A stretch of 64,000 nt of DNA from an uncultured bacterium. Its GTDB lineage: Bacteria; Hydrothermota; Hydrothermia; B15-G9; WFZT01. Position 1 is the stretch's first letter. Each line of letters begins with the position of its first letter. The notes under the pieces are model-generated. The model was not told where the DNA came from. It was given only the letters and a program-made list of their open reading frames with translations, and made no database searches. Below, in pieces: positions 4,618 through 62,557 of the stretch. The translations under genes and the position numbers were made by a program. The stretch is taken from positions 11,676 to 75,675 of the forward strand of contig CAZNDM010000050.1 in the NCBI GenBank assembly GCA_964571845.1, given 5' to 3'.

Positions 4618-4735
4618 TTCTCCCCTCCCATTTGCGAGGAGATCCACCCACGACCCTCCCGCTTTGCGGGAGGGGATTGAGGGGAGGGTGAAAGGCACCT
4701 TTTGCCCCCTCCTTAATCCTCCACCTCAAGACATC
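4618..4735. repeat. GC-rich palindromic repeat element (family member 1)
   Basis: Perfect hairpin 'ccctcccgc-ttt-gcgggaggg' at 4654..4674. Flanked by 'gggattgagggg' and by 'tgccccctccttaatcctcc', a 20-mer identical to 25411..25430. Possible ~11-bp flanking direct repeats 'gacatcgtctt'/'gacatccgtctt'. Sits in a GC-poor intergenic region. Confidence 0.6.
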
Positions 4736-5088
4736 CGTCTTGTGGGAAAGAAGATTGATAAGTGTCCCCCACATTGCTGGCATATCGTGGAGGAGGACGG
4801 TGAGTGTCCTCCTACCCCGTACTGAACGCTCTGAGAAAGGAAGTTAAAAATTACATGGACCTTTTTACCTCAAAAGAATTTTTTCGAACACCTCCCCTTT
4901 GCTTTTCCATTTTACTACACCCTTTCTTTCATTTTTTCTCCCTACTTTATAGTGGTGGGGAGAGATAACCTTCTTCTTAAATTAACTGCGGGTAGGCGGG
5001 TAAAACTTACATTCCTATTTTTCTCCAGACAATTTTTTCACCTTCCTTTGTATGGCATTATAATAACGGGACAAAAAGGAGGAAAATT

Positions 5089-23711: not shown

Positions 23712-24767
23712 TTACTTTTTGATTTTATCCCAGCCTCCCGCTTTTTGTATGTAGCCCTCATCTATATAAATTCTTCTGCCGCGGACCTGGAATTTGACGG
23801 GGAGAAATTTTTCTGTAACCATGATGTTTGTCTGTGTGTGTTTGGTAACTTTACTGACAACGATTTCACCACCTGCAAGGGCGATGAGGGGTATGATGTT
23901 GTCTTGGAGGTGTATATCAACTGTTGCACCAGAGTTGAGTTCGTGAATGAGGTTCTTCGCCGCCTCCTGACCAATTTTTTCAGCGGGTACCCCAAGTTTT
24001 CCAATATTGTCAGATCCTATAATGGCTCCGGAACTGAATTGAGCGTACGCAAGAATAGAGCATCCCGGAGTTAAGCTCTCCTCATAATGGATTACTTCGA
24101 TCGGGTTGAATTTTTTGAGGATTTCTCTTGCCCCTTTAAGCTGTCTTTCTGCGACATTTCTCTTTTTTAACTTGGTTGAGGACACAGAAATGATTTTGAC
24201 AAATTCGAGTTTTCCCTGTTCCGTGAGTAGTATTGGCTTGATTTTTAGGGAACTTGTGGGATAAACCTCGACTTCTACTATTCCACCTCCTGCAGGGTAA
24301 TAACCCCTCCGTCGAACTCTGACTTCTATTTTCTTTGAAAATCTTTCAACGAAGGGTTGGTAAATATATCGAAGGTAATCGATGGTCATTCCGCCGGGAA
24401 CATCTGTACCGCCAATAATGGTAAGTTTTGACGGTTTTTCTGCAAGTGTTAATGTGGGCAAAAGAGTCTGAAGTACGAGGGTGATGCTACCTGCAGTATG
24501 GATATCCAGTTTGAGATTACCACCTAAAACTCTGCCAGGGTGAAATTCAAGCTCGGTGCTGTTCAGTTTGTCCCCCTTGGCATCTGATTCTGTGATCTGT
24601 TTCAGGGCTCTTATGATGGATAGATGTTGCATTTTCAGACCCGGGTTTTTGCGGGATGCCCTGATATTGTGGATTCTAAAAGGCTTACCTGTGAGAAGTG
24701 AGAGAAATAAGGCTGTTCTGACAATTTGACCTCCGCCCTCACCGTATGAGCCATCAATCTTGATCAT
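23712..24767 (-). CDS. rtcA: RNA 3'-terminal phosphate cyclase
   Basis: 351 aa. 'IDGSYGEGGGQIVRTALFLSLLTGKPFRIHNIRASRKNPGL' matches the RtcA N-terminus. Confidence 0.85.
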   Translation of the reverse strand: MIKIDGSYGEGGGQIVRTALFLSLLTGKPFRIHNIRASRKNPGLKMQHLSIIRALKQITESDAKGDKLNSTELEFHPGRVLGGNLKLDIHTAGSITLVLQTLLPTLTLAEKPSKLTIIGGTDVPGGMTIDYLRYIYQPFVERFSKKIEVRVRRRGYYPAGGGIVEVEVYPTSSLKIKPILLTEQGKLEFVKIISVSSTKLKKRNVAERQLKGAREILKKFNPIEVIHYEESLTPGCSILAYAQFSSGAIIGSDNIGKLGVPAEKIGQEAAKNLIHELNSGATVDIHLQDNIIPLIALAGGEIVVSKVTKHTQTNIMVTEKFLPVKFQVRGRRIYIDEGYIQKAGGWDKIKK

Positions 24768-25408
24768 AGAGGATAAATTATACCTTAATCGAAGGTGCTC
24801 GAAAAATATTTTTCATTAATTGTTTTGAGGAAAAACTCTCTTTTTTCTTCTGTTTCGGGAATACCACTCTGGATATCCATACTATGGGCACAACTTTGGT
24901 CTCGCTTTTTACTGTAGCGAAAAGGCTCCCGGAGTCTTCCTCCATTTGATAAAAAGCAGTGTAAAAGTTTTTGGGTGTTCTCCACACTCTGCGGAAGGCA
25001 AATTCACCCACTCTTATCTCGCCCTACGATGAGCTTACCCGAAAACCTCCCACCGTTCGCATGAGAGTTAACCCAATGTCTCCCCTTCGGCTTTTCGGGA
25101 AACCATTCTACAACTTCACCCATCATGAAAAGGAAAGGGTTATCCTCACAATCACTCTTCCGTTTAGTGGAGGGATTACATAAAATCTCTCCTCCCTCGA
25201 AATAGATGGATTTCTCCACAAACTTTCCCTCCCGCCTTGTGTGAAAGACCACTTACCACCTCTTCTCCCATGTGGTGTGACGGCTCACCTTCAACCTTCT
25301 ATCCCAAGAAATGGGAGCGTTCATCTATGGCTTCCCCTTCCAAGAGGTGGAGGATTGAGGGGATGGGAACGAAAGCACTCTATGCTCTCCCCGGTCTAAT
25401 CTGTTCTT

Positions 25409-25880
25409 TCTGCCCCCTCCTTAATCCTCCCCCGCTTCGCGGGGGAGGAGATTGAGGGAAAATCCCCCACGAAGCGGGGGAGGAGATTGACGGGAAATTT
25501 CTCGCGAAGTGGGGAGGAGTTTGGAGGAAATTCTTCTGCGAAGCGAGGGAAGAGGATTGACAGAAAGTCTCCCATGAAGCGGGGGAGGAGGAAGACGAAA
25601 AATCTCTCGCGAAGTGGGGGAGAGGATTGATGAGAAGTTTCTCGCGAAGTGAGGGAGAAGAATGGTGTAAAACTCCCGTGAAGCAGAGGAGGGGATTGAT
25701 GTAAAATCTTCTGCATGGTGAAGGAGGGGTTTGAAGGAAAAACCCTCGAAAAGCAGGGGGAAGATTTTGTCGAGTCTCCTCTACCACAGCGTTAACATAC
25801 TACAGGGACAGGGTTGAGGGGATCTCCCCGCATTGCGAGAGAGGGATTGGCGGAAAATCATCCGCACTTAGGGGGAGGCG
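25409..25880. repeat. GC-rich palindromic element followed by a degenerate ~35-bp tandem repeat array (~9 units)
   Basis: Near-perfect ~47-bp palindrome 'ccctccttaatcctcccccgc-ttcg-cgggggaggagattgaggg' at 25413..25459. Then head-to-tail units such as 'gaagcgggggaggagattgacgggaaatttctcgc', each an imperfect 'yctcyc-GAAG-ygggggag' hairpin plus 'gaggattga' and a variable tail. Confidence 0.7.
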
Positions 25881-26007
25881 GTGGAGGAGGTTAAAAGATG
25901 CATTCATACTTTTTCCAAAAGCCTTTTTGATCGACCCTCCTTCCTGCTGTTAACAATCGTTGTCGTATGCAATAAAATAGTGTGATATACACTTCGGGAG
26001 GAAAGAT

Positions 26008-27207
26008 ATGGGATTTTTCATTGCTGGTGAGGACGAGATAAAAAAGGGTCGTACAACCGATGTCTATTTCACACGGACGGAGAGGATTTTAAAGGAAAAG
26101 AACATTCACAATGTTTCTGTAGCCGAATTCACAGTCTCAAGTCTCCCTGATGGGTACAAATGGGCGATTTTTGGAGGACTTGAGGAAACTGTTGAGCTTT
26201 TGAAAGGAAGAAACATTGACCTTTACGCATTCCCTGAAGGCACTCTCTTCAGATCGAGAGATGTGAACGGAGTTCTCGTCCCTGTAATGTACATCGTAGG
26301 TGATTATGTGGAGTACGCCATTTATGAGACCCCTGTTCTTGGTTTCCTTTGTCAGACAACAGGGGTGATGACGAAGTCGGCGAGAGTTAGAATAGCAGCC
26401 GGTGACTCTCTCGTTCTATCGTTTGGCATAAGAAGGATGCATCCGGCTCTTGCGCCCATGATTGATAGAGCAGCGTATATTGGAGGATGTGATGGGGTAT
26501 CCAGCATTATTGGAGCTGAAACTATTGGGCAGCCACCAAAGGGAACGATGCCCCACGCTCTCATGATCACAATGGGTGAAGATGAAGCCTGGAAAGCTTA
26601 TGACGAACTTATGCCACCAGAAGTCCCGAGAATAGCTTTGATTGACACTTTTGGTGATGAAAAGTTTGAAGCAGTTAAAGCCGCCGAGATATTCAAAAAC
26701 CTGCAGGCTGTTAGACTGGACACTCCGGGATCAAGGCGAGGCAATTTCCCGGCAATTATCAGAGAAGTCAGGTGGGAGCTTGACATTAGAGGTTACAGCC
26801 ATGTAGGTATATTTGTTTCTGGTGGACTTGATGAGAACACTATTCCGGAACTCAAGAAAGCAGGTGCCACGGGATTCGGGGTGGGTACATCCATTTCCAA
26901 TGCCCCAACTGTTGACTTTGCAATGGATATAGTTGAAATTGATGGAAAGCCTGCTGCAAAGAGGGGAAAATTCAGTGGCAGAAAAGATACCTACAGGTGT
27001 TCTGATTGTTACTCATTTGTAAATGTTAAGCACGGAGAAAAACCACCGGAGAAATGTCCAGTGTGTGGTGGAAAGCTTGAACTGATGCATAAAAAGATCC
27101 TTGAAAAAGGAGAACCTGTCGCTGATCTCCCCGATGTTGACACCATCCGTAAATATGTGCTTGACCAGCTTGCTCACATTTCTAAAATTGACGAAAATCC
27201 ACTTTGA
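26008..27207 (+). CDS. pncB: Nicotinate phosphoribosyltransferase (archaeal/thermophile-type) with C-terminal zinc-ribbon
   Basis: 'FIAGEDEIKKGRTTDVYFTRTERILKEKN' N-terminus typical of this NAPRTase family. C-terminal 'CSDCYSF...CPVCGG' CxxC...CxxC motif. Confidence 0.75.
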   Translation: MGFFIAGEDEIKKGRTTDVYFTRTERILKEKNIHNVSVAEFTVSSLPDGYKWAIFGGLEETVELLKGRNIDLYAFPEGTLFRSRDVNGVLVPVMYIVGDYVEYAIYETPVLGFLCQTTGVMTKSARVRIAAGDSLVLSFGIRRMHPALAPMIDRAAYIGGCDGVSSIIGAETIGQPPKGTMPHALMITMGEDEAWKAYDELMPPEVPRIALIDTFGDEKFEAVKAAEIFKNLQAVRLDTPGSRRGNFPAIIREVRWELDIRGYSHVGIFVSGGLDENTIPELKKAGATGFGVGTSISNAPTVDFAMDIVEIDGKPAAKRGKFSGRKDTYRCSDCYSFVNVKHGEKPPEKCPVCGGKLELMHKKILEKGEPVADLPDVDTIRKYVLDQLAHISKIDENPL

Positions 27208-37590: not shown

Positions 37591-38565
37591 AGAAAAATCA
37601 CATCGGGCTTGGATAAGGGAACTCAGCGAATTTTTATAAACAATAAGATTTTCAGGAAATACCGCACCATTTAATACCTTATTGTGAAGATTGATTGATG
37701 GCGACAGGATGTGTACCCCTTACAATCCGTCCTCCCACAGTGCCAAACACACAGCGGATAAGAAAGTTGTAGAAACCTTCTCATGCTCTTATAAGATTTG
37801 ATCGTGGTCCAGGTGTCCGAATGATATTACATACCATTCGACAGAAGAGATACCCCGTCATCCTTTCGAGAAATGGGATGGAATTTTCTAAGCTCCTCTG
37901 CAAATGGGTAGTGAATCTCTCACAGAATTTCTCGCATGCGAAATAACTTCCCAAAGCATTCCCCCCAAGTTCGGCACAGGGGGATAGAGGCGAGGAAGAG
38001 AAGACACCTTTGACAGCGTTCGTTGTTTATCTTTTAAAATCAGAATGTTTTGACAGGCTTTTCCTGAGGATCTGAGGCAACCATATCTCTCACAAAATAC
38101 ACACAGACAGATGATCCTTCTCCTCATCTCCCTCTGAAGGAATGCCCGAAATTTCTACGAAATTTATTCTCCGGTTGCCTTCTTCATCTCTATCTGGATA
38201 GCCTGGTCCTCTTTGATCTTTTCAATTTCTTTGATTTTCTTTTAAAGATTCCTTTCCCTGTCACTTTTATGGAAAAGTAGAGCTCCCTTTTCTCCTTCCA
38301 AAAACCTCCATTCGTAGTGGAGATATTTGCTTATCCGATACTTCTTTATTTAAATGTTTCCCTTGAGCCCTTCAAGTACAATAGCCACTTTTGTTTCAGG
38401 ATCAAATTCTCGACGATTATGTTAATTTTCTAATCAGTAGGCTAAATCCAGCAGCATATTTAAATCCCCATGGAAACGGATCAGCTTGCCAGAACGCCCA
38501 ATTTTTCCACATCAATCTTCTCCACGGATTAGTAAATTTTCACTATATAGGCATCACCTGAAAGC

Positions 38566-38594
38566 TTGACTTATCATTAGTAATTCTTTACAAT
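38566..38594 (+). promoter_or_regulatory. Putative sigma70-like promoter (TTGACT-N17-TACAAT) upstream of the Fe-S/molybdoenzyme operon
   Basis: Seen directly: 'cTTGACTtatcattagtaattcttTACAATcgg', ~80 bp upstream of an RBS 'aggagg' and the ATG at 38676. Confidence 0.35.
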
Positions 38595-38675
38595 CGGAGC
38601 AATTGCATTTTTGCTCATAGAAGTATTAAATACTAATTTTGTGGGCGCTCTTTCAAATAATAGGAGGTTAGTTGT

Positions 38676-42400: not shown

Positions 42401-42589
42401 TGGGCCTATGGAGCCAGCGACATCATAGTGGATGGTAAGGTGATAAAAGGGGATAAGAGGCGCGCGACAGGGTTATGTCCAAATGCTGTCATGAGAATCG
42501 ATCCGGTGTTGAAGAATGTCTCAATGGAGGATGTGATCGGCGGTTCTGCGTCCTACTTTGATACAAGGGTTGAGCTTGTGAGAATTTGA
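39455..42589 (+). CDS. Molybdopterin (bis-MGD) oxidoreductase catalytic subunit, Tat-exported; substrate unknown (tetrathionate/polysulfide/arsenate-reductase-like)
   Basis: Tat signal 'MKRREFVKSAAFVGGYAALAS'. N-terminal [4Fe-4S] motif 'CLQCHTSC...CPKG'. 1044 aa. Confidence 0.8.
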   Translation: MKRREFVKSAAFVGGYAALASKLEASSNMMNFIVQKAASGQISYPLARPQNVIYSACLQCHTSCTIKVKILNGIAVKIDGNPYSPMNMIPQLPYSTPPTEAAKFDGKLCPKGQAGIQTLYDPYRLRKVLKRDGPRGSNRWKVISFEQAINEIVNGGYLFKHVKGEENRYVHGLKDIYKLRDPAILKKMKKDAALVAKKKMSVSDFKRKYGKYLNTLISPDHPDLGPINNQLVFMAGRIEHGRKEFAKRWLYDAFGSVNFYEHTTICEQSHHIAYKSATKKYVNGKWVSGKEHMKPDALNSEFIIYWGTGAFEANFGPTPISEKITEGIATGRLKIAVVDPRLSKTAARAWKWLPVKPGYDAALALGMIRWIIENKRFDEKYLRASNKSAAKLNNETTWTNATYLVKIEKDGPGALLRASELGIGDEHTFVVISNGKPTPVKPESGAPVTGELFYSGKVNGIKVKSVFQLLKEEAFSKSLDEWARLAGVTANDIAELASEFTSHGKKAAIDFYRGPVQHPNGYYNGYLIIVLNLLIGNPDWKGGLSAGGGHWHEMGNKRKGPFNLKAMHPGKLGSFGVKLTREKSKYEDTTLFEGYPAKRPWFPFTGNVYQEILPSAADGYPYKIKALILHKGTPAFASPAGHTNIEILKDLDAIPLFIACDIVVGETSMYADYIFPDTAIWERWGTPHITPDVPAKTSKVRQPTVTPLTEIVSVFGEKMHLSMEALLLAIAEKLNLPGYGKDGFGKGWDFKRPEDYYLKMVANIAAGDKVGEEVPDASFNELKIFRSARRHLDKATFDENKWIRAVGKEWWKKVVYVLNRGGRFEDLTNKFIGEGKLVHKFGRMFNIYFEPVALARNPMNGRRFSGMGTFRPITDVAEKPIRDSKYPLYLITYKEIFGGQSRTIGDYWITQTYAPENYVYIHPATARRYNLRDGDIVKIVSATNPEGVWDLKNGQRIPVAGKVKITEGVRKDVVAVSWSYGHWAYGASDIIVDGKVIKGDKRRATGLCPNAVMRIDPVLKNVSMEDVIGGSASYFDTRVELVRI

Positions 42590-42591
42590 GG

Positions 42592-42637
42592 GATGGGGGA
42601 GGGGGCGGGCCGAAGGCCCGCCCCCTCCCTCAAACAT
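42592..42637 (+). terminator. Perfect GC-rich hairpin (14-bp stem, GAAG loop) 3' of the molybdoenzyme gene; probable terminator/REP-like element
   Basis: 'ggagggggcgggcc-gaag-ggcccgccccctcc' immediately after the TGA. There is no clear T-tract, so intrinsic-terminator status is tentative. Confidence 0.5.
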
Positions 42638-43116
42638 GAAAAATCAATTCCCCGGAAAATTCACCTTAATCCTTTCCAGATACCAACCAGCTTTTTACTG
42701 ATTGAACAAAAGAAGCTGTATATTCCTTCCCCAATCTCCATTCACAAATCAAAGTTTCATAATGCTCAAGGGGTATAAGGTTACAAAAAATTTCCAGAGG
42801 TGTGAAACCCTTTTGACTGGCACTTCTCATAACAGTCTTTAAAAACTTTCAATTACTTTTCGTGGATGGGATCAAAGGGAGGCGATGTTTGCTCTTTCAA
42901 CGCCATAGTAAAGCTCTCTGGAAAGTAGGGTTCTCCCACGCTTTAAGGGGGTATGGTTATATTTGCCTTTTTGTACAAATTTTTAAAACTTCATAACGCT
43001 CAACACCTTGAAAATAACACCTTGAAAATCCAGGTTGTGCATATTACACCGTGTAAAATTCCATCTGATTCGGGATATTTGATCTTTTCATAGTTTTTCA
43101 GCAGGGAGTGTATAGA

Positions 43117-49819: not shown

Positions 49820-49861
49820 ACCATGGAGGAATGTGTTTAGTATTGTGAGGAGGTTTTCCAA

Positions 49862-50215
49862 TGACCTCCTCCTTCGCCGGGGAAATTCTAAACTCCACAA
49901 AGCTTTGCCTTGTGGGGGAATTGAGGAGGGGCAGGCAGATCTGACAGGAAGAAGCAGGTGGGCTTTTATTGCCCTCCCTTTAATCCCCTCCCGCAGGCGG
50001 GAGGGGGTGTGGACACTTTTCACATGCTGCTATGCAAGGTGTTGAAGAGCAATCGACAAACTCCTCCCCCACTTCGCTGGGGAAATTCTAAATTCCTCCC
50101 CCACTTTGTGGGGGAGGATTGAGGAGGGGGCAAAAAGAGCAGATCTGCTGGAGGGAAGGAGATGAGGTATTTTCCCCTCCCCTCAATCCCCTCACACTTC
50201 GTGGGAGGGGAGTTT
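49862..50215. repeat. Cluster of GC-rich palindromic repeat elements, including two ~85-bp direct repeats
   Basis: Hairpins 'cccctcccgc-agg-cgggagggg', 'ccccactttgtggggg', 'cccca-cttcgc-tgggg' and 'cctcacacttcgtgggagg', each with an 'attgagg'/'cctcaatcc' flank. The ~85-bp direct repeats are at 49862..49945 and 50062..50152. 'ttgccctccctttaatcccctcccgc' echoes the 4700 and 25410 copies. Confidence 0.6.
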
Positions 50216-50407
50216 GTAGGTAGTCCCCTTCATGTAACGGAAAGGGAAGTTGGGTGTAATCTTTCCTACAAGATGGGATTTTGCAAGCATAGGGGTGGAA
50301 ATAAAGAGGTTTTTTCGCAAAATAAAGAGGGAGTAACCACTTGTAAAATATTTTTCGAACACCCTACAGTGTTTGTTTGACTATATATTTGGGCTGAATT
50401 AAAATTA

Positions 50408-59559: not shown

Positions 59560-59564
59560 GGAGG

Positions 59565-59611
59565 TGGGGGTGGGGCTCTGCTTCGCAGAGCCCCACCCCC
59601 ACCTATATCAC
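59565..59611. terminator. Long perfect GC-rich hairpin with TTCG loop between convergent genes; probable bidirectional terminator/REP-like element
   Basis: 'ggtgggggtggggctctgc-ttcg-cagagccccacccccacc' (19-bp stem), 6 bp after the stop at 59559 and ~140 bp from the folP stop. Confidence 0.5.
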
Positions 59612-61654: not shown

Positions 61655-62557
61655 TTACGCGAGAGGAAGTTCGTAAGAGAATATAATGTGTACCCCTTTC
61701 TCTTGGGCGTATTTCCTGACTTTTGATGAGGTGTGGTAAGTTATTAAAACAAGGAACTTGTCACCCGGGATGTATCTGTCAAGGAGTTTAATGTAGCCAA
61801 GGAATTTATCGATATCCCTTTTCCTTGCCTGAGCTTTAGACTCTCCTATGATCGTGAAAGTTTTTCCGTTTTGTTTGCCTTTACCTATAATGTTAATTTC
61901 GATTTCACGATTTTCGATTTCGAGCATTTCTCGTTTTAATGGGCCTATAGTTTCAATGTTGAATCTCTCTTTCAGGATTGAAGGTAATCCTTTAATAGCC
62001 CTATCTTCGAGTACATAGCCAAAGGCGTTTGTGAGACCGCCGAGATGTTCTCGTGTCTTTTTGTGCTCCTGGGTGAGTTTCTTAAGCTCTCTCTCAGTTT
62101 CTTTTTGTGCGAGAGCAAGTTCATTGAGCCTTTCTTCAGTTCTTTTTTGAGCAATGGCAAGTTCATTAACTCTCTGTTCAGTTCTTTTTTGAGCTTCAGC
62201 CAATTCATTGAGCCTTTCTTCAGTTTTCTTTTGAGCTTCAGCTAATTCACTAACTTTTTGTTCAAGTTTACTGTGTGCGAGAGCAAGTTCATTAAGCCTT
62301 TCTTCGGTTCTTTTTTGAGCAATGGCAAGTTCATTAACCCTTTGTTCGGTTCTTTTTTGAGCTTCAGTGAGTTCGTTAATAGCTTTCCACACCCTGTTAA
62401 AGTTCTCATTCGTTGTTCTGACGAACTCTTGGAATTCTTTTCTTGTAACAGTTTCTCCGATAATACGCTCAGCCTCTTCCAGGAAACTGATGAATACGTC
62501 CCTGAGTTTAGGATCTTCTATACTTTCAAGTTTTCTAATAAGTGAGGCTCTAACCAT
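61655..62557 (-). CDS. Coiled-coil protein with seven 14-aa tandem repeats and a C-terminal PD-(D/E)xK-nuclease-like domain (hypothetical)
   Basis: Repeats 'AIAQKRTEERLNEL / ALAQKETERELKKL'. C-terminal 'EIENREIEINIIGKGKQNGKTFTIIGESK' resembles an E..(E/D)-x-K nuclease-fold motif. Confidence 0.45.
   Translation of the reverse strand: MVRASLIRKLESIEDPKLRDVFISFLEEAERIIGETVTRKEFQEFVRTTNENFNRVWKAINELTEAQKRTEQRVNELAIAQKRTEERLNELALAHSKLEQKVSELAEAQKKTEERLNELAEAQKRTEQRVNELAIAQKRTEERLNELALAQKETERELKKLTQEHKKTREHLGGLTNAFGYVLEDRAIKGLPSILKERFNIETIGPLKREMLEIENREIEINIIGKGKQNGKTFTIIGESKAQARKRDIDKFLGYIKLLDRYIPGDKFLVLITYHTSSKVRKYAQEKGVHIIFSYELPLA
62075..62380. repeat. 42-bp tandem repeat (~7 copies, with a 168-bp higher-order duplication) inside the coiled-coil gene
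   Basis: Units such as 'gcgagagcaagttcattgagcctttcttcagttcttttttga' and 'gcaatggcaagttcattaactctctgttcagttcttttttga'. Copies 1/5 and 2/6 are nearly identical. Confidence 0.7.

What the first reader, a model, noticed from the sequence alone, without database searches (positions are those of the whole stretch)
25409..25880. Degenerate ~35-bp tandem array (9 units) seeded by the palindromic element; not a CRISPR
Downstream of a near-perfect 47-bp palindrome, the sequence repeats head-to-tail every 34-36 bp. Each unit is 'gaag-(c/t)gggggagg-agattga-NNN-aaatttctcgc' and retains an imperfect GAAG-loop hairpin plus the 'gattga' flank, with a ~10-nt variable tail. Units decay towards the 3' end. The array lies in a 1.2-kb divergent intergenic region between rtcA and the NAPRTase gene. 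It could be a replication-slippage expansion of the element, a protein- or RNA-binding site array, or a transcript made of tandem hairpins. Two long minus-strand track ORFs (25380..25787 and 25396..25716) with 'SPASW'-type repetitive translations are by-products of the repeat.
Basis: seen in the sequence. Interest (0 to 1): 0.55.

Follow-up and report, generated by a model that had tools for sequence, protein, structure and literature searches.

The report
Expanded hairpin module of intergenic repeat
The 35-bp array is real, but it is most likely a decaying, length-variable minisatellite that grew out of one hairpin module of a small palindromic repeat element scattered through this bacterium's intergenic DNA; it is not a CRISPR, a gene or a toxin-antitoxin locus.

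Summary
The tandem array exists. Tandem Repeats Finder gives 25439-25709, period 35, 7.8 copies, score 197, against a maximum of 77 in 200 shuffles. Ten units can be put in register over 25436-25784.

It is the iterated 3' module of a ~200-nt composite palindromic element with four copies in the window (25323-25525, 4637-4832, 49821-50024, 50021-50225). The organism is a WOR-3/Hydrothermota-like bacterium.

A near-identical strain (ENA assembly, L081) carries 106 nt more, equal to three more units. The window's unit 2 is a chimera of that strain's units 2 and 5, which points to deletion by unequal recombination or slippage. Related species lack the array and the local synteny.

- Units differ mostly by transitions.
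- Only the first unit is still a strong DNA hairpin.
- There is no covariation beyond column composition.
- The array is no more conserved between strains than its flanks.
- There are no Rfam hits and no cas, transposase or toxin genes.
- The minus-strand ORFs have no homologues.

One unexpected lead: the palindrome plus first unit is 75-80% identical to a high-copy intergenic repeat of Azospirillum. A similar three-unit mini-array occurs in an unrelated metagenome contig.

Verdict: a BOX/BIME-like modular repeat with a variable-number tandem repeat (VNTR). This is ordinary in kind, and interest is modest.

The parts
25323..25525 (+). Copy of the ~200-nt composite palindromic element. It consists of hairpin 1 with a G-rich arm, a ~45-nt linker, the large palindrome, and the first short hairpin unit(s).
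   Evidence: blastn shows 25333-25492 matching 50211-50054 at 73%. See alignment A2. An nhmmer profile built from A2 gives E=4e-53.
25412..25458 (.). Large palindrome GCCCCCTCCTTAATCCTCCCCCGC-TTC-GCGGGGGAGGAGATTGAGGG. The perfect core is 25425-25449: 11-bp arms and a TTC loop.
   Evidence: (I2). On the minus strand the loop reads GCGAAGC.
25436..25784 (+). Tandem array of ten units of 34-36 nt, starting at 25436, 25471, 25506, 25540, 25576, 25611, 25646, 25680, 25715 and 25750. Each unit has a G-rich arm (GCGGGGGAGGAGATTGA), an A-tract, a short C/T arm and a GAA loop.
   Evidence: TRF gives 25439-25709, period 35, 7.8 copies, score 197. The shuffle maximum is 77. Register and hairpins are and the unit identity matrix.
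25506..25539 (+). Unit 2, the chimeric junction unit. Its 5' part matches L081 unit 2 and its 3' part matches L081 unit 5. This is the site of the 106-nt (three-unit) length difference between strains.
   Evidence: Alignment A1 and the unit sequences.
25810..25887 (+). Degenerate element-like remnant downstream of the array (AGGGTTGAGGGGAT...CCCCGCATTGCGAGAGAGGGATTG...GGGGGAGGCGGTGGAGG).
   Evidence: the repeat finder D2, D8 and I10. Weak nhmmer hit at 25824-25919, E=0.002.
4637..4832 (+). Second copy of the composite element, in the divergent spacer upstream of a ferritin-like gene.
   Evidence: nhmmer E=2.7e-37 and alignment A2. Length is unchanged in strain contig L220.
50021..50225 (-). 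Third copy of the composite element. It carries a palindrome followed by a two-unit mini-array.
   Evidence: nhmmer E=2.2e-58.
49821..50024 (-). Fourth copy, head-to-tail with the third (about 200-nt period).
   Evidence: nhmmer E=2e-43. Repeats D4 and D10 are spaced 198-203 nt apart.
25380..25787 (-). 135-codon ORF running through the array. It is a by-product of the pyrimidine-rich minus strand. A second ORF, 25396-25716, lies in another frame.
   Evidence: No Pfam hit and no homologue. The period of 35 nt and the 106-nt indel are both incompatible with a reading frame.
24778..25252 (-). Reading frame of about 155 codons between the element and rtcA, interrupted by an in-frame TGA at 25004-25006. 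That codon is GGA in two other assemblies, one of which has a frameshift nearby. Probably non-coding or a dead orphan gene.
   Evidence: No hit in Pfam, PADLOC, the 5.8-billion-protein search (34) or phmmer against 1.84 billion representatives (73).
25950..25978 (+). Promoter-like TTAACA-17-TAAAAT for the phosphoribosyltransferase gene. It lies downstream of the array and is conserved in related species, where homology to the window begins.
23712..24767 (-). rtcA (RNA 3'-terminal phosphate cyclase), the left flanking gene.
   Evidence: Pfam RTC 2.7e-78.
26008..27207 (+). Nicotinate/quinolinate phosphoribosyltransferase-family gene, the right flanking gene.
   Evidence: Pfam QRPTase_N and QRPTase_C.

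Best explanation
The array is a non-coding minisatellite. It arose by tandem amplification of the last ~35-nt hairpin module of a lineage-restricted, modular palindromic intergenic repeat element.

The element is built from one ~20-nt G-rich motif (GGGGGAGGAGATTGAGGG) placed in alternating orientations. Its 3' end already carries one or two short units of the form 'C-run, GAA, G-run'.

Adjacent units share 20-nt identical stretches and can form hairpins. They therefore misalign during replication or recombination, which adds or removes whole units. Between such events the units decay by point mutation, mainly transitions.

What is shown:
- The array is part of the dispersed element.
- Copy number differs between near-identical strains.
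- The junction unit is chimeric.
- Units are decayed and not conserved.
- The array is absent from related species.

What is inferred:
- The mechanism is slipped-strand mispairing or unequal crossing-over, helped by hairpins with C-GAA-G loops.
- The array has no function that depends on its sequence or copy number. At most it has incidental effects as a spacer or as a weak bidirectional transcription block between two divergent genes.
For: 1. The array is real and far above chance.
2. Window 25323-25525 is one of four copies of a ~200-nt element. The copy at 50021-50225 already shows a palindrome plus two units, so the repeated module is intrinsic to the element.
3. The ENA contig L081 is 99.5% identical in the flanks but has 106 extra nt, equal to three units. 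The Logan contig L082 has the window's length.
4. In L081, units 2/5, 3/6 and 4/8 are 91-92% identical. The window's unit 2 is a 5'-unit-2 / 3'-unit-5 chimera. That is the product expected from a deletion between paralogous units.
5. Related species (82-89% identical NAPRTase, loci L001-L004) have no array and no element there. Their homology to the window starts only at 25924-25997.
6. Substitutions among units are mostly transitions.
7. With DNA parameters only the first unit is a clearly stable hairpin.
8. Pairing in the unit hairpin (90.6%) is no higher than in column shuffles (90.4%), so there is no covariation.
9. Between strains the array has 5-7 differences per 349 nt, against 0-1 per 226 nt in the 3' flank. 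It is not under visible purifying selection.
10. There are no Rfam matches, no promoter-like site feeding the array, and no homologue or domain for any ORF across or beside it.
11. Precedent: pneumococcal BOX elements carry a tandem boxB module whose number varies between strains through the same mechanisms (PMC3049150).
Against: - On the plus strand the variation is one-sided: C to T in the left arm against a kept G-run. As RNA, the hairpins therefore survive through G-U pairs. The summed energy is -84.8 kcal/mol on the plus strand against -64.2 on the minus strand. Selection on a plus-strand RNA would give this pattern, but so would strand-biased deamination.
- The palindrome plus first unit resembles a high-copy Azospirillum repeat at 75-80% identity, and the same plan occurs in an unrelated metagenome contig. 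This hints at a conserved constraint that 'junk' does not explain.
- All four copies point the same way relative to the nearest downstream gene on one side. With only three loci this is not significant.
- Both alleles come from short-read assemblies, and repeat arrays can be misassembled.
- No expression data could be consulted.
Confidence: 0.6

Rival explanations
1. The plus strand of the array is transcribed into a structured RNA made of about 8-10 tandem hairpins, separated by GGA-rich single-stranded linkers (GGAGGAGAUUGA). It would work, for example, as a protein sponge in the manner of CsrB/RsmZ, or as a stabilising or insulating RNA element.
For: - Plus-strand RNA hairpins persist in degenerate units through G-U pairs: -5 to -8 kcal/mol, against -1 to -2 on the minus strand.
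- 90.6% of cells are paired, and the register is specific compared with slid controls at 59-79%.
- The whole region folds better than shuffles, z = -4.0.
Against: - There is no covariation beyond column composition: 278 of 500 shuffles reach the observed pairing.
- The minus strand has an equal or better z-score, -4.6.
- No promoter-like site lies upstream on the plus strand.
- No Rfam family matches, CsrB/Rsm families included.
- Copy number and sequence vary between near-identical strains.
- The array is absent from relatives.
Confidence: 0.12
2. The array is a row of double-stranded DNA binding sites for a dimeric DNA-binding protein: an 8-bp inverted repeat every 35 bp, with three units spanning about ten helical turns. 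It would be comparable to sopC centromere repeats, to iterons, or to binding sites for a nucleoid or regulatory protein acting on the divergent rtcA and phosphoribosyltransferase promoters.
For: - The period is regular at 34-36 bp, with an inverted repeat and an A-tract in each unit.
- The location is a divergent promoter region.
- There is a 105-106-nt higher-order period.
Against: - The half-sites have decayed asymmetrically, so most units are no longer palindromic as duplex DNA.
- No partition, replication-initiator or adjacent regulator gene was found in the window.
- The conserved promoter of the downstream gene lies outside the array, and relatives manage without the array.
- The same element sits at unrelated loci.
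Confidence: 0.08
3. Read on the minus strand, the locus is a decaying type III toxin-antitoxin system. A tandem array of antitoxin RNA repeats (25784 to 25436) would be followed by a palindromic terminator (25458-25412) and then by a toxin gene (25252 to 24778) that is now interrupted.
For: - The order 'tandem array, palindrome, ~155-codon ORF' on one strand matches the published locus criteria (PMC3401426).
- The unit length of 35 nt is close to the 36 nt of ToxI.
- A hairpin followed by a T-run occurs on the minus strand at 25481-25463.
- The in-frame TGA of the ORF is GGA in two other assemblies.
Against: - The ORF has no hit in Pfam, PADLOC, a 5.8-billion-protein search, or phmmer against 1.84 billion representatives.
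- It carries a stop in one strain, a frameshift in another, and non-synonymous changes in the third.
- The palindrome plus units is a dispersed element, found at three other places without any such ORF.
- Units are only about 70% alike, whereas antitoxin repeats are normally near-identical.
Confidence: 0.03
4. It is a degenerate CRISPR array.
For: The repeats are regularly spaced, partly palindromic and contain ATTGA.
Against: - The whole period is 35 nt, so there are no spacers.
- The 'variable tails' are homologous to each other.
- Repeats match at only 69%.
- No cas genes lie in the 64 kb.
Confidence: 0.01

Closest known systems
Pneumococcal BOX elements (boxA, then a variable number of boxB, then boxC)
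   Same: - A modular, hairpin-forming intergenic repeat present in many copies.
- One short module (boxB, 45 nt) is arranged as a tandem array whose number differs between loci and between strains.
- That variation is attributed to slipped-strand mispairing or unequal crossing-over (PMC3049150).
- Here the 35-nt unit is present as 1-2 copies in other element copies and as 10 or 13 copies at this locus.
   Different: - There is no sequence relationship, and the phylum is different.
- The repeated module here is at the end of the element rather than between two distinct end modules.
- The units here are much more diverged from each other.
- Only four element copies have been seen so far, all within 64 kb.
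REP / REPIN / BIME clusters of Proteobacteria
   Same: Short GC-rich imperfect palindromes in intergenic DNA, often paired in inverted orientation to form larger hairpins and sometimes clustered. They are thought to act or move as single-stranded DNA hairpins (PMC3733652).
   Different: - There is no GTAG or CGTC tag next to the stems.
- No RAYT gene lies in the window.
- The units here are head-to-tail, whereas REP clusters are mostly head-to-head or tail-to-tail.
High-copy intergenic palindromic repeat of Azospirillum replicons. I found no published description of it.
   Same: - Window 25403-25517 aligns at 75-80% identity.
- The plan is the same: TTGCCCCCTCC..CCTCCCCCGC-TTCG-C.GGGGAGG.GATTG, then a C-run, GCGAAGC and a G-run, then a third hairpin.
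- Using an Azospirillum copy as query gives at least 782 places in 48 replicons.
   Different: - Azospirillum copies hold a fixed set of about three different hairpins and show no long array in the 80 kb inspected.
- The host is a 68% GC alphaproteobacterium.
- The similarity could be convergence between C-run/G-run palindromes. Homology is not shown.
Type III toxin-antitoxin antitoxin arrays (ToxI and relatives)
   Same: Head-to-tail repeats of about 35 nt, followed on the same (minus) strand by a palindrome and then an ORF.
   Different: No recognisable toxin. The repeats are degenerate. The repeat-plus-palindrome is a dispersed element.
CRISPR arrays
   Same: Regular spacing and partly palindromic repeats.
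   Different: No spacers, no cas genes and low repeat identity.

Membership tests
Minisatellite / variable-number tandem repeat (VNTR) | Head-to-tail non-coding repeats with a period of 10-100 nt | tested here: met
   Period 35, 7.8-10 units. No coding support.
Minisatellite / variable-number tandem repeat (VNTR) | Copy number differs between closely related genomes | tested here: met
   L081 has three more units (106 nt) than the window and L082, with flanks about 99.5% identical. Caveat: all are short-read assemblies.
BOX-like modular intergenic repeat (the analogy is to how it works, not to its sequence) | Composite element dispersed in intergenic regions, with one module tandemly iterated in variable number | tested here: met
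   Four copies in 64 kb. Unit number is 1-2 in three copies and 10 or 13 at this locus.
BOX-like modular intergenic repeat (the analogy is to how it works, not to its sequence) | Sequence homology to pneumococcal boxA/B/C | not tested
   No comparison was run. The elements have different composition and hosts, so only an analogy is claimed.
REP / REPIN (RAYT-associated) | GTAG or CGTC tetranucleotide tag at the foot of the palindrome | tested here: not met
   No such tag flanks the stems in units or in element copies. The definition is from PMC3733652.
REP / REPIN (RAYT-associated) | A RAYT (Y1 transposase) gene in the genome, typically flanked by the repeats | tested here: inconclusive
   None found among about 50 ORFs of the 64-kb window. 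The rest of the genome could not be searched.
REP / REPIN (RAYT-associated) | High copy number genome-wide | not testable with these tools
   There are four copies in the window and none in a further 9 kb of the same species. The whole genome was not available.
Type III toxin-antitoxin | Tandem array of short repeats followed by a palindromic terminator on the same strand | tested here: met
   On the minus strand the array is followed by the palindrome 25458-25412. A hairpin plus T-run lies at 25481-25463. Criteria are from PMC3401426.
Type III toxin-antitoxin | Downstream toxin gene of the ToxN/CptN/TenpN kind | tested here: not met
   The ORF 25252-24778 is interrupted and has no hit in Pfam, PADLOC or two very large protein searches.
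Type III toxin-antitoxin | Repeats near-identical to one another | tested here: not met
   69% matches by TRF. Pairwise unit identity is 56-83%.
CRISPR | Repeats separated by unique spacers of similar length | tested here: not met
   The period of 35 nt is filled by the unit itself, and the tails are mutually homologous.
CRISPR | cas genes nearby | tested here: not met
   No cas gene in the window. The only related signal is a secondary Cas3-like_C_2 match inside RecG.
Described structured RNA families (Rfam 15) | Match to a covariance model at its gathering score | tested here: not met
   There are 0 hits at gathering threshold in the window. Only sub-threshold matches to generic microRNA hairpin models appear at E up to 10.
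Iterons / replication origin | Adjacent initiator gene, AT-rich unwinding element and DnaA-box cluster | tested here: inconclusive
   - No initiator or partition gene is nearby.
- The array is G-rich, not AT-rich.
- Cumulative GC skew has no turning point here.
- Two TTCTCCACA motifs at about 24976 and 25212 were seen by eye only.

The most novel reading that the evidence does not exclude
The palindrome and its C-run/GAA/G-run hairpin module may belong to an undescribed, cross-phylum super-family of intergenic hairpin elements. It has been seen here in a WOR-3/Hydrothermota bacterium, at high copy in Azospirillum, and in at least two unrelated metagenome contigs. On this reading it would act or move as single-stranded nucleic acid, and its terminal module can amplify in tandem. 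The array would then be the most expanded known example of a conserved functional or mobile unit, not lineage-specific junk.
Probability: 0.15. Interest if true: 0.6.

Novelty: new member of a known kind. Interest (0 to 1): 0.3.

Why it matters
As it stands, the finding matters mainly for annotation and assembly.
- It explains two spurious ORFs of more than 100 codons.
- It explains why short-read assemblies of this organism break at 25412-25428 and at 25000-25094.
- It offers a strain-typing marker (10 or 13 units) for an uncultured hydrothermal-vent lineage.

It also adds a repeat family with BOX-like behaviour to a phylum where none has been described, as far as I could find.

The only wider point is the unexpected likeness to the Azospirillum repeat. 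If that is homology, it would bear on how small palindromic elements spread or are constrained across phyla.

Tried and rejected
1. Coding repeat: rejected. The period and the indel are not multiples of three, and there are no domains or homologues.
2. CRISPR: rejected (see the membership test).
3. Type III toxin-antitoxin: the architecture fits on the minus strand, but the 'toxin' ORF is interrupted and has no relative anywhere.
4. Replication origin or iterons: nothing supports this beyond the divergent gene orientation.
5. Known RNA families: none match.
6. Covariation test on 16 unit variants: pairing is explained by column composition alone.
It returned mostly unrelated tandem repeats, and no other copy of this locus. 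Two contigs (L120, L128) turned out to have the same hairpin plan.
8. Viral contigs: the two-unit pattern gave only single matches in 14 contigs, none related to the array, and the palindrome pattern gave one isolated 19-nt match in a 34% GC contig, which I judge to be chance or irrelevant.
9. Orthologous loci in relatives through NAPRTase and rtcA: synteny is broken and there is no array or element.
10. Extending the genome sample: of three look-ups with proteins from the ends of the window, two found nothing and one added 9 kb without any element copy.
11. Search with the array's spurious ORF to find other arrays in public gene calls: nothing.
12. GTAG/CGTC REP classes: the tags are absent.

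Full report
**Observation**

Tandem Repeats Finder reports a single array at 25439-25709: period 35, 7.8 copies, 69% matches, score 197. In 200 dinucleotide-preserving shuffles of 25300-25900 the best score is 77.

Anchoring on the loop triplet gives ten units of 34-36 nt from 25436 to 25784. The last two are badly decayed. An element-like remnant follows at about 25810-25887.

The array sits in the 1,240-nt divergent spacer between rtcA (23712-24767, minus strand) and a nicotinate/quinolinate phosphoribosyltransferase gene (26008-27207, plus strand).

The leading palindrome is real but less perfect than described. It has 11-bp perfect arms around a TTC loop (25425-25449), extended imperfectly to about 25412-25458.

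**Organism and relatives**

The phosphoribosyltransferase gene is 82-89% identical to genes in metagenome-assembled genomes labelled candidate division WOR-3, and 71% identical to one labelled Hydrothermota.

In those relatives, nucleotide homology to the window begins only at 25924-25997. That is just upstream of a conserved promoter-like TTAACA-17-TAAAAT. What lies further upstream is different in each genome. None of them has a tandem repeat or the palindromic element there.

The rtcA gene has no relative closer than 61% identity. The three rtcA loci I fetched have short, unrelated upstream regions. The array is therefore specific to this species or strain cluster.

**What the array is part of**

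The stretch 25333-25492 matches 50211-50054 on the opposite strand at 73%. A profile built from the alignment finds four full copies of a ~200-nt composite element in the window: 25323-25525 (+), 4637-4832 (+), 50021-50225 (-) and 49821-50024 (-).

The element is built from one G-rich motif of about 20 nt (GGGGGAGGAGATTGAGGG) in alternating orientation. Its parts, in order, are:
- a first hairpin;
- a ~45-nt linker;
- the large palindrome;
- one or two short units of the form 'C-run, GAA, G-run'.

The copy at 50021-50225 already has a palindrome followed by two such units. The array at 25436-25784 is this terminal module iterated ten times. All copies lie in unusually long intergenic regions. 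A further 9 kb of the same species holds no copy.

**Length polymorphism and mechanism**

Two other assemblies carry identical flanking proteins. The Logan contig L082 has the window's array length. The ENA contig L081 has 106 extra nt, which is three units, while its flanks are about 99.5% identical.

In L081, units 2 and 5, 3 and 6, and 4 and 8 are 91-92% identical. The window's unit 2 has the 5' end of L081 unit 2 and the 3' end of L081 unit 5. This is the signature of a deletion between paralogous units across a 21-nt identical stretch.

The opposite direction, a duplication, would have produced identical copies. Those could not have diverged by 8-9% in strains that differ by 0.5%.

The element copy at 4637-4832 shows no length change between strains. 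This agrees with what is reported for pneumococcal BOX elements, where longer arrays vary more (PMC3049150).

Short-read contigs end inside this region (25412, 25428, 25000, 25094), as expected for a repeat.

**Tests for function**

- Coding: the period (35 nt) and the indel (106 nt) are not multiples of three. The minus-strand ORFs are open because that strand is pyrimidine-rich. They have no domain and no homologue.
- Known RNA families: nothing reaches gathering score in the window. At E up to 10 only generic hairpin matches to microRNA models appear.
- Structure: each unit boundary can form an ~8-bp hairpin with a GAA loop. 90.6% of cells pair if G-U is allowed, and the register is specific (slid controls give 59-79%). 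But shuffling partners between units gives 90.4%, so there is no covariation.
- Pattern of variation: it is one-sided. C changes to T in the left arm against a retained G-run. The C>T rate is 0.29-0.37 per C cell and the G>A rate is 0.16-0.19 per G cell.
- Hairpin energies as RNA: the plus-strand hairpins sum to -84.8 kcal/mol and the minus-strand ones to -64.2.
- Hairpin energies as DNA: only the first unit is clearly stable.
- Whole region: both strands fold better than shuffles (z = -4.0 and -4.6), with no strand preference.
- Conservation between strains: the array carries 5-7 differences per 349 nt, against 0-1 per 226 nt downstream and 6 per 436 nt upstream. It is not conserved.
- Transcription signals: no promoter-like site feeds the array on either strand. 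The only such site is the downstream gene's own promoter.

**The toxin-antitoxin look-alike**

On the minus strand the order is tandem array, palindrome, then a ~155-codon frame (25252 to 24778) that ends 10 nt before rtcA. [quoted passage not shown]

The frame has an in-frame TGA in the window. That codon is GGA in two other assemblies, one of which has a frameshift. Most other strain differences in it are non-synonymous.

It has no hit in Pfam, PADLOC, a 5.8-billion-protein word-indexed search, or phmmer against 1.84 billion representatives. In addition, the palindrome plus units is a dispersed element, found three more times without such a frame. I therefore reject this reading apart from a small residual probability.

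**An unexpected relative**

blastn against PLSDB plasmids matched window 25403-25517 at 75-80% identity, and only in Azospirillum replicons, in unannotated intergenic DNA. Using an Azospirillum copy as query gave at least 782 places in 48 replicons: 46 Azospirillum and 2 Methylosinus.

The Azospirillum element has the same order of parts: TTGCCCCCTCC..CCTCCCCCGC-TTCG-C.GGGGAGG.GATTG, then a C-run, GCGAAGC and a G-run, then a third hairpin. Its outer ends are complementary to each other. 46 columns of the five-sequence alignment (148 columns) are invariant, most of them within the first ~90.

Among contigs returned by an otherwise unproductive metagenome scan, two share this plan. L120 (53% GC) has a similar palindrome followed by three 36-nt units of the type C-run, GAAGC, G-run. 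L128 has two such units. There were no matches in phage or E. coli collections.

Low-complexity palindromes can converge, so homology is not shown. Still, this is the one feature that the 'lineage-specific junk' reading does not explain.

[quoted passage not shown] Its melting temperature is 76.5 C, and the RNA version is far less stable (PMC13037366). This fits hairpins that matter at the single-stranded DNA level, for instance in promoting slippage. That link is my inference.

The element lacks the GTAG or CGTC tags of the described REP super-families (PMC3733652). Pfam scans of about 50 window ORFs found no transposase, RAYT, cas or toxin gene.

**Verdict**

The best-supported account (about 0.6) is a non-coding minisatellite. 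It was generated, and is still being resized, by misalignment between hairpin units of a modular intergenic repeat. It behaves like the boxB arrays of pneumococcal BOX elements but is not related to them.

Rival readings remain possible but lack positive evidence: a plus-strand RNA of tandem hairpins (0.12), a row of protein-binding sites (0.08), a dead type III toxin-antitoxin locus (0.03) and a CRISPR (0.01).

Novelty: a new member of a known kind. Interest is about 0.3, and it comes mainly from the cross-phylum likeness, which deserves a genome-wide census.

Noticed in passing
window 25403-25517; loci L226 1498-1612, L227 1500-1620, L229 20003-20125: The palindrome plus first unit is 75-80% identical to a very abundant, unannotated intergenic repeat of Azospirillum chromids and plasmids. 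With an Azospirillum copy as query there are at least 782 places in 48 replicons. The order of hairpins is the same.
   Followed up: partly
L120 (Ga0265295_1038003) 2360-2510; L128 2815-2880: Unrelated metagenome contigs (53% and 63% GC) carry the same plan. L120 has a C-rich/G-rich palindrome followed by three 36-nt tandem units, each with a C-run, GAAGC and a G-run. L128 has two such units.
   Followed up: partly
window 24778-25252 (minus strand): A frame of about 155 codons ends 10 nt before rtcA. It has an in-frame TGA (25004-25006) that is GGA in two other assemblies, one of which has a frameshift. It has no homologue in any protein search. It is either a dead orphan gene or non-coding.
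   Followed up: yes
window 24794-24815 (minus strand) and 50342-50363 (plus strand); L001 505-534: A shared AT-rich, partly palindromic motif TG(A/T)AAAATATTTTTCGA(G/A)CACC lies 27-66 nt upstream of the start codons of rtcA and of the triosephosphate isomerase gene. A similar 31-nt stretch occurs in a related genome. It may be an operator or promoter element.
   Followed up: no
window 25950-25985; L001 and L003 3940-3975: The promoter-like sequence TTAACA-17-TAAAAT (GTTAACAATC...TATGCAATAAAATA) upstream of the phosphoribosyltransferase gene is conserved in related species. It marks the exact point where synteny with them begins.
   Followed up: partly
window 62064-62379: A second tandem repeat has a 42-nt period (84-nt higher order, about 7 copies) inside the 300-codon minus-strand ORF 61655-62557, which has no Pfam match. 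The period is a multiple of three, so it is probably a coding repeat of 14 or 28 residues.
   Followed up: no
window 59562-59604 and 42585-42641: Long G/C-rich palindromes sit at gene ends: a perfect 20-bp stem between convergent genes, and a 27-nt stem at 81% complementarity right after the molybdopterin oxidoreductase gene. They look like ordinary terminators and are unrelated to the dispersed element.
   Followed up: no
window 37591-38675: A gene-poor stretch of about 1.08 kb lies between the valyl-tRNA synthetase gene and a ferredoxin-type gene. It has no ORF of at least 100 codons and no copy of the element.
   Followed up: no
window 23712-24767: rtcA has no relative above 61% identity in 5.8 billion proteins, while neighbouring genes have relatives at 82-89%. 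Its genomic context also differs from that of its nearest homologues. This suggests rearrangement or acquisition at this locus.
   Followed up: partly
window 25412-25428 and 25000-25094: Independent short-read assemblies break inside this intergenic region. Logan contigs end or start inside the palindrome, and two ENA contigs overlap by 95 nt with four differences. This indicates strain heterogeneity and repeat-induced fragmentation.
   Followed up: yes
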